The position numbers were made by a program, and so were the translations under genes. Below are positions 2,243 to 4,258 of a stretch of DNA of 16,498 nt, one piece after another. The notes below the pieces were generated by a model, which was not told where the DNA came from, searched no databases, and saw only the letters and a list, made by a program, of their open reading frames with translations. Where the stretch lies: contig CAVZMI010000031.1 in NCBI GenBank assembly GCA_963776275.1, positions 1 to 16,498 of the forward strand, given 5' to 3'. This stretch comes from Ignavibacteriota bacterium. GTDB taxonomy: Bacteria; Bacteroidota; Ignavibacteria; UBA10030; CAVZMI01. Each line of letters opens with the position of its first letter. The first letter of the stretch is position 1.

Positions 2243-2974
2243 ATGGCAAATTCACGAGAGCGCACTTTTGCTGAAAAGATCAGTACGTGGGTACAGATCA
2301 TAGGAATTGTTGTGGCAACCGTGTGGGGTGCTTATACTTTTATTTACAAAGAAATTACCATTCCACGATCCGCACCCATAAATATTTCTGTCAACTTGGA
2401 ACTGAAAAAGATCGGGACGACCATGACGAATGTTTATAATCGCGCTGGATCAATCATCAACGTCGAAATGCAAATCTCGATGAAAAATCCAAGCTCGCGA
2501 AAGGTTGACCTTTTGCCAAGTGTTTGGATAGCATATGGATATACGGTTGCAGCCACAAAATTTGAGAGTATTGATTCCTTTGCCACACGTGCCACTGCTT
2601 TACTGAAGTACCCCCTTGGTTTCGTCGAAAGAGGATTCACTAGAACATCAGAAACTGTTCTGTCAACCGGGAGGCTGTTCACAGACACATATCTTAAACC
2701 AAATGAAACGGTTGCTCGAACGCATATACTTCACATTCCAGCGAACACATATGATGTGCTTGAAGTTGTTTGCATACTCCCTAGTGCTGCAGACGCAAGT
2801 AAGTTAGAAATCGAATGGAACCTCGATTCGAATATAGTCCTGAATGACGTGTGGTTTCATCTGGACAGAAAAGGACGACGTACACTAATAAGTTCCGATG
2901 AACTGGAGTCCTATTCAAAGCCGCCGTTCGAGTGTCAGTATTCGCGTTCAGTGTCCCAAATCTCATTACGTTGA
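2243..2974 (+). CDS. Hypothetical protein with one N-terminal TM helix and a beta-rich domain
   Basis: RBS GAAAGGAG at 2231-2238 precedes ATG 2243, preferred over TTG 2096. TM segment WVQIIGIVVATVWGAYTFIY. Confidence 0.8.
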   Translation: MANSRERTFAEKISTWVQIIGIVVATVWGAYTFIYKEITIPRSAPINISVNLELKKIGTTMTNVYNRAGSIINVEMQISMKNPSSRKVDLLPSVWIAYGYTVAATKFESIDSFATRATALLKYPLGFVERGFTRTSETVLSTGRLFTDTYLKPNETVARTHILHIPANTYDVLEVVCILPSAADASKLEIEWNLDSNIVLNDVWFHLDRKGRRTLISSDELESYSKPPFECQYSRSVSQISLR

Positions 2975-3034
2975 GGAGCGAATGTGCTTCTCTACTTTTT
3001 GTTAATGCTAAACACAATCGAAGTTAGTATATTA

Positions 3035-3191
3035 TGGTTCGACCACTCGACCGTTCGACAAGGTCTCGACAAGTGGTTCGACAAGCTCACCACGAGCTCG
3101 ACCCAAGACTCACGGCAGGCAAGCTCGTGGTAAACAAGCTTGTCCCGAGCTTGCCCCGAGTTAATCGAGGGGTATATCGAGGGGCTCACCA
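3035..3191. repeat. Nested cluster of seven REP-like mini-hairpins (N4-TCGA-loop-CTC-N4')
   Basis: Stem pairs TGGT/ACCA, CCAC/GTGG, CCGT/ACGG, GGTC/GACC and GTGGT/ACCAC are nested on +. Two more copies (TCCC/GGGG and CCCC/GGGG) are nested in the opposite orientation. Confidence 0.85.
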
Positions 3192-3279
3192 CAGATTGTA
3201 TTAACTCAACACCGTACCAGTGTCGAGTATTGAATAAATCGTTTGCCCCGGCCTTGGCCGAAGGCTCGTGACAAGCCGG

Positions 3280-3384
3280 CGGGACTTCGCATAGAACGTG
3301 CCGCCCCGACATATAACGTCGGGACTTCGCATAGAACGCGCCGCCCCGACACATAACGTCGGGATGGCGCACAAAACGCGCCAC
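3280..3384 (+). repeat. 40-bp tandem repeat, about 2.6 copies, with CCCGAC-N7-GTCGGG hairpins across the unit junctions
   Basis: CGGGACTTCGCATAGAACGYGCCGCCCCGACAYATAACGT at 3280-3319 and 3320-3359 (2 mismatches). A diverged partial copy lies at 3360-3384. Confidence 0.9.
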
Positions 3385-3412
3385 AAGACAAAAGACAAAA
3401 AAGGAATCCTAA

Positions 3413-4258
3413 ATGAAATTCCATAAATATCATGGACTCGGAAATGACTACATTGTTATCGATCCCAATGAAGCTTCTATTAATCTTAAAAATGAAATCA
3501 TCAGACTAATATGTGATAGAAATTATGGTGTTGGTTCTGATGGAATACTATACGGGCCTGAAAACAAGGATGGCAATCAATTTTCAGTTCGGATATTTAA
3601 CCCGGATGGAAGTGAGGCGGAAAAAAGCGGTAATGGAATGCGGATATTTTCAAGATATCTTTGGGATATTGGTCTTGTCACGGAAAAACCATTTCAGATT
3701 TCAACAAAGGGTGGAATTGTAACATCGCAAGTTTTAAATGATGGCGACATGATAAAAGTTGAAATGGGAAAAGTCTCTTTCAATGCAATCGATATTCCAA
3801 TAACCGGAAAGACCGGTGAAGTAATTAATCAAGAAATGGTAATCGGACAAAGAAAGCTGAAATACTGTGCTGCAACCATCGGGAATCCACATTGTATTAT
3901 TCTTGGTGAACAGATTTCACCGGAAATTGCTAAGGAACTTGGACCTGTCATAGAATGTAGTCCGCTATTTCCTAATCGGACGAATGTCCAATTCCTTAAA
4001 GTATTGAATAATTCAGAAATCCAAATTGAGATCTGGGAAAGAGGAGCCGGTTACACGCTTGCATCTGGCAGTAGCAGCATAGCGGCAGCTGCAGTAGCAC
4101 ATAAAATAGGCCTGTGCGGAAAAAATATTACGGTTCATATGCAAGGTGGCAACCTCGACATATCATTTTCTGATGATTTTACGGCGACGATGATCGGACC
4201 CGTAACGGCCGTATACGACGGCGTAATCAAGAATGACTTTTTCAATAAATGTATATAA
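3413..4258 (+). CDS. dapF: Diaminopimelate epimerase family protein, Ser/Ser active-site variant
   Basis: Motifs KYHGLGNDY, GVGSDG, FNPDGSEAEKSGNG, GNPH, FPNRTNVQF, WERGAGYTLASGSS and MIGP. Adjacent to dapL. Confidence 0.93.
   Translation: MKFHKYHGLGNDYIVIDPNEASINLKNEIIRLICDRNYGVGSDGILYGPENKDGNQFSVRIFNPDGSEAEKSGNGMRIFSRYLWDIGLVTEKPFQISTKGGIVTSQVLNDGDMIKVEMGKVSFNAIDIPITGKTGEVINQEMVIGQRKLKYCAATIGNPHCIILGEQISPEIAKELGPVIECSPLFPNRTNVQFLKVLNNSEIQIEIWERGAGYTLASGSSSIAAAAVAHKIGLCGKNITVHMQGGNLDISFSDDFTATMIGPVTAVYDGVIKNDFFNKCI

What the first reader, a model, noticed from the sequence alone, without database searches (positions are those of the whole stretch)
3035..3191. Russian-doll array of seven mini-hairpin elements nested inside each other's loops
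Seen in the sequence: the stretch parses almost completely as module N4-TCGA-loop-CTC-N4'. The innermost intact copy is GTGGT-TCGA-CAAG-CTC-ACCAC (3073-3093). It sits inside GGTC-TCGA..CTC-GACC (3062-3103), inside CCGT-TCGA..CTC-ACGG (3051-3115), inside CCAC-TCGA..CTC-GTGG (3043-3130), inside TGGT-TCGA..CTC-ACCA (3035-3191). The outer loop also holds two reverse-strand copies: CCCC-GAG-TTAA-TCGA-GGGG (3154-3172) inside TCCC-GAG..TCGA-GGGG (3143-3184). The stems vary in sequence but close in strict last-opened, first-closed order, which tandem slippage would not produce. Inference: a ~20-25 nt non-autonomous element, recognised by structure, repeatedly inserts into the loop of its own family, perhaps mobilised in trans by a HUH/RAYT-like or other nuclease. 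The single TCGACAAGCTC hairpin resembles dispersed REP-like repeats; the five-level nesting is the unusual part.
Basis: partly seen in the sequence, partly recalled or inferred. Interest (0 to 1): 0.85.

Follow-up and report, generated by a model that had tools for sequence, protein, structure and literature searches.

The report
Nested mini-hairpin repeats tied to GIY-YIG nuclease

Summary
The nesting is real: five perfect N4-TCGA..CTC-N4' modules sit one inside another at 3035-3191. No shuffle came close (0 of 5000, twice). Twelve loci in this genome nest three or more deep, against 0-1 for each of nine control motif pairs.

The unit is about 23 nt: stem, TCGA, 4-nt loop, CTC, stem', CAAG-like tail. 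It enters the host's 4-nt loop at position 0, 3 or 4, without target duplication.

A same-genus genome shows unit-sized gains or losses, including a 24-nt unit exactly between TCGA and CAAG of a solo copy. At this locus, however, 229 nt (array plus 80 nt) differ as one block. Five local insertions are therefore not shown.

RAYT transposases do not track the repeats. A 97-aa single-domain GIY-YIG nuclease does. TCGA..CTC hairpins flank its gene in 3 of 3 own copies, 8 of 10 loci in the order, 21 of 26 in the phylum and 67 of 80 metagenome loci (controls 0-6 modules).

This parallels the Ssn nuclease/NTS repeat pairs (Chenal 2025), but the published repeat motif does not match. I rate it a new variant of a known kind. 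That the nuclease moves the units is inferred.

This scan met the same cross-phylum family earlier on other DNA (e1-1486152, e1-3769763, e1-5064927).

The parts
3035..3195 (+). Outermost unit TGGT-TCGA..CAAG..CTC-ACCA plus tail CAGA. Its loop CAAG (3135-3138) holds a forward composite at loop position 0 and a reverse composite at position 4.
   Evidence: Read; grammar. The 5' half and loop (TGGT-TCAA-CAAG) are all that the congener G001 keeps.
3043..3134 (+). Unit CCAC-TCGA..CTC-GTGG plus tail TAAA.
   Evidence: Exact 4-bp stem. Enters the host directly after TCGA.
3051..3119 (+). Unit CCGT-TCGA..CTC-ACGG plus tail CAGG, placed directly after the host TCGA and followed by the host loop CAAG (3120-3123).
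   Evidence: row C31 3042: 5' gap 0, 3' gap CAGGCAAG.
3062..3107 (+). Unit GGTC-TCGA..CTC-GACC plus tail CAAG, placed after loop letter 3 of its host (CAA|..|A).
   Evidence: row C31 3050: gaps CAA / CAAGA.
3074..3096 (+). Innermost intact unit TGGT-TCGA-CAAG-CTC-ACCA plus tail CGAG, placed after the host loop CAAG (3070-3073).
   Evidence: row C31 3061: gaps CAAG / CGAG.
3139..3184 (-). Reverse-strand outer unit (read on the minus strand: CCCC-TCGA-TATA-[inner]-CTC-GGGA-CAAG). The stem closes with one T.G.
   Evidence: not counted as nested by the exact-match parser.
3150..3172 (-). Reverse-strand inner unit (minus strand: CCCC-TCGA-TTAA-CTC-GGGG-CAAG).
   Evidence: Exact.
3043..3271 (.). 229-nt block present here and absent from the orthologous gap of the same-genus genome G001. 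The junctions are TCGA| and |CAAG.
   Evidence: flanks 93-96% identical.
2973..2992 (+). Terminator-like hairpin with a T-run at the end of the upstream ORF (2096-2974). The array lies beyond it.
3277..3356 (+). Two tandem 40-nt copies of a local hairpin repeat. In G001 one CCCGAC..GTCGGG hairpin loop holds a 23-nt unit (CCC-TCGG-CAAG-CTC-GGG..) that is absent here.
   Evidence: only 2 copies in the genome.
3413..4258 (+). dapF (diaminopimelate epimerase), the downstream neighbour. It is context only, not part of the element.
   Evidence: TIGR00652, 252.9 bits.

Best explanation
The stretch is an intergenic pile-up of a very small non-coding DNA unit of about 23 nt: a 4-6 bp stem, TCGA, a 4-5 nt loop, CTC, the complementary stem, and a CAAG-like tail. 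The family is dispersed in this Ignavibacteria-like genome, across its order, and, with the same core, in many other phyla.

Units are gained or lost whole. They sit preferentially in the apical loop of another unit, directly after TCGA or after loop letter 3 or 4, with no target duplication. Every unit therefore brings a new landing site, and Russian dolls result. Nested blocks are then also copied, tandemly amplified or deleted as blocks.

The protein partner is most likely a 97-aa single-domain GIY-YIG nuclease, whose gene is itself surrounded by TCGA..CTC hairpins. By analogy with the Ssn ssDNA nucleases and their NTS/SRM hairpins, it would bind the TCGA/CTC bubble of the hairpin on single-stranded DNA and nick nearby. 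Repair or religation of such nicks would insert or delete units.

Shown: the grammar, the dispersal, the unit-level polymorphism and the gene-repeat association.
Inferred: binding, cleavage, and that cleavage drives the insertions.
For: Grammar and non-randomness:
- Depth 5 here, with 0 of 5000 shuffles in each of two controls reaching it.
- 12 loci of depth 3 or more, against 0-1 for nine control motif pairs.
- 52 TCGACAAGCTC cores against 1.8 expected.

Unit and landing site:
- 22 loci show compact nesting; 12 of them have an inner unit starting directly after the host TCGA, followed by tail plus host loop. The others have the unit after loop letter 3 or 4.

Unit-level polymorphism against congener G001 (11 loci aligned out of 20 fetched):
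- A 24-nt unit between TCGA and CAAG of a solo unit (C15).
- A 24-nt unit in the loop of another hairpin (C10).
- A 24-nt unit in AT-rich non-hairpin DNA (C32).
- Tandem copy-number changes (C4).
- At this locus, a 229-nt block with TCGA|..|CAAG junctions, and a 23-nt unit present only in G001.

Conserved core with freely covarying stems in other genera and families. In many phyla, 98 of 130 15-mer hits extend the stem.

GIY-YIG link:
- In the own genome, 3 of 3 genes of the subfamily have 3-4 hairpins within 400 nt; 7 other small GIY-YIG genes have 0.
- Order: 8 of 10 loci, with 18 modules in 10.7 kb near the gene against 3 in 20.9 kb elsewhere.
- Phylum: 21 of 26 loci, with 78 modules in 27 kb against 17 in 54 kb.
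- Metagenomes: 67 of 80 loci, 240 modules in 119 kb, 29 of 80 with hairpins on both sides, and eight control grammars giving 0-6 modules.
- The three own cassettes (0.9-1.3 kb) are missing from the orthologous G001 gaps.

Precedent: Ssn GIY-YIG nucleases cut ssDNA beside the hairpin repeats that flank their genes (PMC11893778, sections read).
Against: - No biochemical evidence here; cleavage and mobilisation are analogy only.
- GIY-YIG enzymes are hydrolytic nucleases, not transposases, so an insertion mechanism is missing.
- Two complete relatives carry many cores but no detectable gene of this family: G022 (27 cores against 9 control hits) and G006 (14 against 3), with the profile search at E <= 1e-5.
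- G030 has the gene but 0 CAAG-core copies.
- Only 2 of 120 cross-phylum repeat loci and 0 of 120 viral loci hold such a gene within the DNA fetched. That is about background, though dispersed copies would be expected to lie away from the gene.
- The published Ssn repeat motif is absent: 6 hits against 15 in a reversed control, and none near the genes.
- The best solved relatives of the protein are labelled UPF0213, not Ssn.
- Units are weak hairpins as ssDNA.
- At this locus the polarity (insertion here or deletion in G001) is unresolved, and the block is one event, not five.
- Loop residence could partly reflect survival (a loop insertion leaves the host hairpin intact) and not targeting.
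Confidence: 0.6

Rival explanations
1. REP/REPIN-type repeats mobilised by a RAYT (HUH Y1) transposase.
For: The genome holds about six RAYT-like genes. One (C38, 211 aa) scores 83.8 bits against NF047646, above the cut-off of 80. It has a depth-3 TCGA/CTC array about 110 nt upstream. HUH Y1 enzymes act on ssDNA hairpins and insert beside a fixed tetranucleotide without target duplication (established knowledge of IS200/IS605). That fits 'directly after TCGA'.
Against: - Only 1 of the 9 Y1_Tnp hits has a multi-level TCGA/CTC array within 1.5 kb; two others (C12, C2) have one to three isolated exact-match modules and six have none.
- The best-scoring RAYT (C12, 117 bits) is flanked by an unrelated GGGAGT..ACTCCC repeat.
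- In C38 the array sits inside a different flanking repeat.
- The C38-type protein is found in 16 of 40 relatives and does not follow the repeats: G002, G006 and G022 carry many cores but give no hit, while G015 has 0 cores and a hit at 1.4e-61.
- The RAYT family as a whole is found in core-free G007, G008, G015 and G030 and core-poor G024 (2 cores), and is not found in G006, G028, G014, G037 and G039, which carry cores.
- The units carry no GTAG or CGTC tag.
Confidence: 0.1
2. A functional structured RNA (a long irregular hairpin) in the dapF leader or the upstream gene's trailer, not mobile DNA.
For: The RNA fold of 3020-3210 has z = -4.68 (+ strand) and -3.65 (- strand), with 0 of 200 shuffles as stable. 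The array lies between a terminator-like hairpin (2973-2992) and dapF.
Against: - No Rfam family matches here or in 15 cross-phylum loci.
- The congener, with 93-96% identical flanks, lacks the whole block.
- The same units occur in both orientations, as solos, in tandem arrays, next to unrelated genes and apparently inside coding DNA.
- Stems are a small recurring vocabulary, not locus-specific covariation.
Confidence: 0.05
3. Host-level repeat instability only: slippage, unequal crossing-over and template switching among pre-existing palindromic repeats, with no dedicated enzyme.
For: - Tandem arrays with copy-number differences between congeners (C4, 23-nt period; C28, 46-nt period).
- A 155-nt unequal-crossover product (C23).
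- Block-wise copying of nested segments.
- Two genomes with units but no detectable GIY-YIG gene.
Against: - Slippage does not give last-opened, first-closed order with different stems.
- Exact 24-nt units appear in non-repeat DNA and in the loops of unrelated hairpins.
- The same core recurs across phyla.
- The core is strongly and specifically concentrated around one nuclease gene family.
Confidence: 0.2
4. Chance parse or assembly artefact.
For: The genome is a metagenome-style draft (38 contigs, 5.3% contamination). Reads could not be checked.
Against: Shuffle controls never approach the observed depth. Eleven further deep loci exist in this genome. Paralogous nested blocks and unit polymorphisms appear in an independent assembly.
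Confidence: 0.02

Closest known systems
Ssn nucleases with NTS/SRM hairpin repeats (Chenal et al. 2025, Nat Commun, PMC11893778; I read Results parts 1 and 'extensive family', the Discussion and one Methods section)
   Same: Both have a small single-domain GIY-YIG protein (94 aa there, 97 aa here). In both, the gene is flanked by 20-50 nt hairpin repeats that are also dispersed in hundreds of copies. The flanking statistics are similar: the paper reports 71% of homolog genes with at least one repeat and 42% flanked on both sides; here 67 of 80 and 29 of 80. Both show an IS-like repeat-gene-repeat layout.
   Different: The repeats here do not fit the published SRM search motif. They have no CGTC tag; the fixed letters (TCGA and CTC) lie inside the hairpin. 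The closest solved relatives of the protein are labelled UPF0213, and placement in cd10448 could not be tested. Nesting in loops and 23-nt unit indels are not mentioned in the sections I read. The supplements, which were closed, may list this clade.
REP / BIME / REPIN elements with RAYT transposases (Di Nocera et al. 2013, PMC3733652, abstract and sections 6 and 8 read; Bertels and Rainey 2011, PMC3116915, passages)
   Same: Both are short extragenic palindromes that cluster into mosaics, occur in both orientations, amplify in tandem and vary between strains. Some copies lie inside genes.
   Different: No GTAG or CGTC end tag. Stems are 4-6 bp, against 8-9 bp. There is no RAYT association. The core is shared across phyla, whereas REP sequences are specific to a species or genus.
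Small dispersed repeats SDR4-6 of Nostoc (Elhai et al. 2008, Genome Res 18:1484). Recalled only: the paper is not held. It is cited in PMC5861425 and PMC3116915.
   Same: By recall, these are 21-27 nt hairpin-forming units reported as mobile, found in tandem and inserted within one another, with no known enzyme.
   Different: Sequence relation was not tested. SDRs were reported as confined to Nostocaceae (PMC5861425 passage). Here the core spans many phyla and has a candidate enzyme. Two Nostocaceae records do carry the 15-mer.
Rickettsia palindromic elements (RPEs) and the yeast/fungal mitochondrial GC clusters (recalled)
   Same: Both are small palindromes that spread within a genome, sometimes in frame within genes, and that insert into one another.
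   Different: They are much longer (RPEs about 100-150 bp), lineage-specific, and have no linked GIY-YIG gene known to me.

Membership tests
Ssn nuclease / SRM repeat system | Single-domain GIY-YIG protein of about 94 aa | tested here: met
   97-aa ORFs at C8:55568-55858, C22:3597-3887 and C26:29260-29550 carry only PF01541. 33 columns are invariant across 12 homologs from several phyla, including the motif tyrosines, R25, H29 and E62.
Ssn nuclease / SRM repeat system | [quoted passage not shown] | not testable with these tools
   No CDD library is on hand. The best PDB sequence hits are 1zg2 and 1ywl, labelled UPF0213 (2.2e-15 and 1e-10). NCBIfam gives only sub-threshold hits.
Ssn nuclease / SRM repeat system | Gene flanked by hairpin repeats that are also dispersed in the genome | tested here: met
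   3 of 3 own genes, 8 of 10 loci in the order, 21 of 26 in the phylum and 67 of 80 metagenome loci, 29 of 80 on both sides. Control grammars gave 0-6 modules.
Ssn nuclease / SRM repeat system | Repeats fit the published SRM motif HGTCWY..RNCYNB | tested here: not met
   6 hits in the genome against 15 in the reversed control. None within 1 kb of 10 GIY-YIG genes, and none in 2975-3412.
Ssn nuclease / SRM repeat system | Strand- and site-specific cleavage of ssDNA beside the hairpin | not testable with these tools
   Needs purified protein and oligonucleotides.
REP/REPIN with RAYT | Unpaired GTAG or CGTC tag at one end of the palindrome | tested here: not met
   The 52 core copies printed with their flanks (42 of them with stems of 3 bp or more) show no such tag on inspection. 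The CGTC-type motif is absent. The definition is from PMC3733652.
REP/REPIN with RAYT | RAYT gene flanked by, and co-occurring with, the repeats | tested here: not met
   Only 1 of 9 Y1_Tnp hits has a multi-level array within 1.5 kb; two more have isolated modules. The best RAYT is flanked by another repeat. No co-occurrence across 40 relatives.
MITE (miniature inverted-repeat transposable element) | Terminal inverted repeats plus target-site duplication | tested here: not met
   The three unit-sized indels and the 229-nt block show no duplicated target. The whole unit is a single 23-nt hairpin.
Described structured RNA family (Rfam 15) | Match to a covariance model | tested here: not met
   No match in the array at E <= 10. 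No gathering-level match in 15 cross-phylum loci.
SDR elements of Nostocaceae | Sequence or architecture match to SDR4-6 | not tested
   The paper is not held, so the resemblance rests on recall.

The most novel reading that the evidence does not exclude
A 23-nt hairpin is a true mobile unit, among the smallest known. A stand-alone 97-aa GIY-YIG ssDNA nuclease moves it by nicking the apical loop of its own recognition hairpin, so that the element is its own preferred target and builds recursive arrays. The nuclease-hairpin pair would be a second, cross-phylum sister system to Ssn/NTS with a different recognition code (a TCGA/CTC bubble inside the stem).
Probability: 0.25. Interest if true: 0.85.

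Novelty: new variant of a known kind. Interest (0 to 1): 0.62.

Why it matters
How very short palindromic repeats spread in bacterial genomes is a long-standing open question. For CGTC-type REPs a partner enzyme (Ssn) was found only in 2025, and even there mobility is a hypothesis.

This locus and its relatives add four things:
- A second, sharply defined nuclease-hairpin pairing that holds from one genome up to metagenomes.
- A precise unit (23 nt) and landing grammar (the 4-nt loop, positions 0, 3 and 4).
- Natural empty and filled sites between congeners.
- A recursive architecture that a mechanism must explain.

Together these make the question directly testable with one small protein and a few oligonucleotides. 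If the enzyme is site-specific on ssDNA, it also adds a new specificity to the ssDNA tool set proposed for Ssn enzymes.

Tried and rejected
- Counting all N4-TCGA..CTC-N4' pairs with spans up to 250 nt does not discriminate: 1191 against 189-1073 for 59 control pairs. Nesting depth does.
- RAYT as partner: tested three ways and not supported.
- Rfam: nothing.
- The cyanobacterial HIP1 idea: GCGATCGC is not enriched, 85 against 56 expected.
- 16S search in the genome: no match.
- Repeat-centred test for the GIY-YIG gene: 2 of 120 genome loci and 0 of 120 viral loci, which is near background. The gene-centred tests are the informative ones.
Stem extension and shared context are evidence.
- Literature by sequence strings: 56 papers hold one of two DNA strings; the 25 listed are primers or unrelated genes, and the four peptide strings occur nowhere. 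I did not open the other 31.
- The Elhai 2008 SDR paper could not be read; a search for SDR5 found no descriptive text.
- ssDNA folding of the units shows no exceptional stability.
- Boundaries of the GIY-YIG cassettes against G001: the whole intergenic gaps are replaced, so no clean ends or target site could be read.

Full report
**The observation.**
The flagged stretch lies in a 438-bp gap between an unannotated ORF (2096-2974) and dapF (3413-4258). I read it base by base. The five forward modules N4-TCGA..CTC-N4' are exact and strictly nested at the coordinates given. The inner reverse copy is exact. The outer reverse copy closes with one T.G.

Each unit also has a 4-nt tail (CAAG, CAGG, CGAG, TAAA or CAGA). 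With the tails, the region 3035-3195 parses without remainder. The outermost unit's loop CAAG (3135-3138) carries a forward composite at its 5' edge and a reverse composite at its 3' edge.

Chance does not give this. Depth 5 was never approached in 5000 dinucleotide shuffles (deepest 1), nor in 5000 permutations that kept all TCGA and CTC words fixed (deepest 2).

**A family, not a one-off.**
The window is contig C31 of a 3.70-Mb draft genome (38 contigs, about 45% G+C, 96% complete, 5.3% contamination). T9SS sorting domains occur in its proteins.

- The 11-mer TCGACAAGCTC occurs 52 times against 1.8 expected.
- 42 of the 52 copies sit between complementary stems of 3 bp or more. The stems come from a small vocabulary: ACCCT, TGGT, CCGT, GTGGT, GTCCT, CCCT, GGTC and others.
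- 33 of those 42 lie outside ORFs of 150 aa or more, although such ORFs cover 83% of the genome.
- Counting modules with long spans is uninformative. Nesting depth is informative: 12 loci reach depth 3 or more with TCGA/CTC, against 0-1 for each of nine control motif pairs.
- The loci include true recursion, for example GGTC > CCGT > GGTC at C18:214585-214720, and tandem arrays with a 23-nt period at C4 and a 46-nt two-level unit repeated five times at C28.

**The grammar of nesting.**
Across 22 loci with compact nesting, the inner piece is always stem-TCGA-loop-CTC-stem'-tail. At 12 loci it starts directly after the host's TCGA and is followed by its own tail plus the host's 4-nt loop (for example CAGG+CAAG). 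In the remaining cases it lies after loop letter 3 (the GGTC units) or letter 4 (the TGGT units) (many of the 51 raw pairings come from the one C28 array). There is no target duplication. All three modes occur in the window's array.

**Comparison with a congener.**
G001 is in the same genus, with flanks 93-96% identical.

At this locus G001 reads TATGGT-TCAA-CAAG-CCGGCGGG. The window reads TATGGT-TCGA-[3043-3271]-CAAG-CCGGCGGG. The nested array plus about 80 further bases therefore differ as one 229-nt block, with TCGA| and |CAAG junctions. Polarity is open. G001's TGGT-TCAA-CAAG looks like the 5' half and loop of the outermost unit, which favours a deletion there for at least part of the difference. 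A few bases downstream, G001 has a 23-nt unit inside a CCCGAC..GTCGGG hairpin loop that is empty in the window.

I fetched 20 G001 loci around its cores and could align 11 to this genome. They gave:
- a 24-nt unit exactly between TCGA and CAAG of a solo CACT unit (present here, absent in G001);
- two 24-nt units present only in G001, one in the loop of an unrelated hairpin and one in AT-rich non-hairpin DNA;
- tandem copy-number changes;
- one 155-nt unequal-crossover product.

Three of the 11 loci showed no indel of 6 nt or more, and one only a 6-nt indel. Nested blocks are also copied as blocks: 80-nt matches at 85-88% identity occur elsewhere in G001.

So units do come and go as units, including in loops. 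But five local insertions at this site are not shown.

**Distribution.**
The core is enriched in many of 40 relatives of the order: G001 28 against 3 for the reversed control, G019 19 against 1, G022 27 against 9, G002 12 against 1. It was not found in six relatives. In G002 and G019 the same core sits between quite different, perfectly complementary stems.

The count itself is no evidence, since about 1100 chance hits are expected. But 98 of 130 hits extend the stem, and most share a long context in Dehalococcoidia, Methylococcales, Nitrosomonadales, Alphaproteobacteria, Planctomycetota, Patescibacteria, Nostocaceae and others. Neither the window nor 15 such loci match any Rfam family. This scan had met the cross-phylum repeat before on other DNA.

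**Which enzyme?**
The RAYT idea was tested and fails.
- The genome has about six RAYT-like genes. Only the C38 copy has a nested TCGA/CTC array nearby, and there the array sits inside a different flanking repeat.
- The best RAYT is flanked by an unrelated repeat.
- Neither the C38-type protein (16 of 40 relatives) nor the RAYT family (32 of 40) follows the repeats.

The genome has 15 PF01541 hits, of which 13 are small stand-alone ORFs.

One subfamily (97 aa, at C8, C22 and C26) is surrounded by several hairpins of the form N7-TCGA-(about 29 nt)-CTC-N7'-TGGCT in both orientations. The 23-nt units sit in their loops, including the depth-3 array at C8:56145-56268. Seven other small GIY-YIG genes, several of them beside tRNA genes, have none.

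Gene-centred tests generalise this:

| Sample | Loci with a hairpin near the gene | Module density | Controls |
|---|---|---|---|
| Order | 8 of 10 (stem 5 or more, within 400 nt) | 18 in 10.7 kb near; 3 in 20.9 kb elsewhere | 0-1 |
| Phylum (300 genomes sampled) | 21 of 26 further loci | 78 in 27 kb near; 17 in 54 kb elsewhere | 0-1 |
| Metagenome contigs (best 80 of 576 confirmed relatives) | 67 of 80; 29 of 80 on both sides | 240 in 119 kb | 0-6, eight control grammars |

In the metagenome loci the median distance from gene to hairpin is 111 nt. The letters between TCGA and CTC vary by lineage: CTTCG 25, CTCCG 22, CAAG 17, CAGG 13, CTACG 12.

The three own cassettes (0.9-1.3 kb) are missing from the orthologous gaps of G001. 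The protein family is very large and well conserved across phyla: 1427 clusters at E <= 1e-10, many at 60-70% identity.

**Relation to what is known.**
Chenal et al. 2025 (PMC11893778; sections read) showed that single-domain GIY-YIG proteins of about 94 aa (Ssn, cd10448) are site-specific ssDNA nucleases. Their genes are flanked by the hairpin repeats they recognise (NTS/SRM, which are CGTC-tagged REPs). They noted the IS-like layout but did not show mobility.

The present pair has the same architecture and similar flanking statistics. The differences are:
- The repeats do not fit the published SRM motif.
- The fixed letters lie inside the hairpin, not at its foot.
- The protein's closest solved relatives are labelled UPF0213.
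- Whether the protein falls in cd10448 could not be tested.

I therefore treat it as working like an Ssn/repeat pair. Membership in the family is not shown.

**Weak points.**
- G022 (27 cores) and G006 (14 cores) have no detectable gene of this family, so the repeats persist without it.
- GIY-YIG enzymes only cut, so the joining step is unexplained.
- The units are weak hairpins as ssDNA.
- Residence in loops may partly reflect what survives, not what is targeted.
- Reads could not be checked.

**Verdict.**
Confidence in the full best explanation is 0.6.

Noticed in passing
window 3277-3356 and L001 2470-2540: Two tandem 40-nt hairpin repeats that occur nowhere else in the genome. G001 has a different copy number here, plus a 23-nt TCGG-CAAG-CTC unit in one hairpin loop.
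   Followed up: partly
window 2973-2992: Terminator-like hairpin with a T-run overlapping the stop codon of the upstream ORF. The repeat cluster starts about 40 nt after it.
   Followed up: no
G000:C38:31286-31921 (L012 1189-1824): A RAYT-like gene is flanked by about 50-nt direct repeats. It contains, between its HUH and Tyr motifs, a hairpin (GGTCGAAAT-GA-AATTTCGACC) that recurs upstream with an insertion in its loop. Related RAYT copies keep the encoded VGRN(E/D)I peptide.
   Followed up: partly
G000:C37:44865-46049: A 421-aa RAYT-like ORF whose HUH and Tyr motifs are separated by about 20 tandem 10-residue repeats (ISPDSEDRMR).
   Followed up: no
G000:C10:40693-41940: Four tandem copies (349-nt period) of an 87-aa GIY-YIG gene, each followed by a copy of the 3' part of a tRNA-Met gene. 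This is another GIY-YIG subfamily, without TCGA/CTC hairpins.
   Followed up: partly
G000:C38 around 12084: A large CRISPR-like array: a 30-nt repeat present 119 times in the genome with spacing of about 66 nt.
   Followed up: no
L067 and L068 (G019): Two units appear to lie in frame inside coding DNA, one just upstream of an NPPY methyltransferase motif. This resembles in-frame palindromic elements of other bacteria.
   Followed up: no
L159 (genome contigs): In a GC-rich genome of another phylum, a GIY-YIG gene of the same family is preceded by the CCGTTCG..GTGGTTCGACAAGCTCACCACGAACGG double hairpin. Its reading frame runs on into repeat-derived LRQAQGER-type peptides.
   Followed up: partly
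G000:C5:66181, C28:26202, C28:60428, C35:320: Four identical copies of a longer repeat (probably an insertion sequence) contain the 11-mer core without stems. They inflate the raw core count by four.
   Followed up: no
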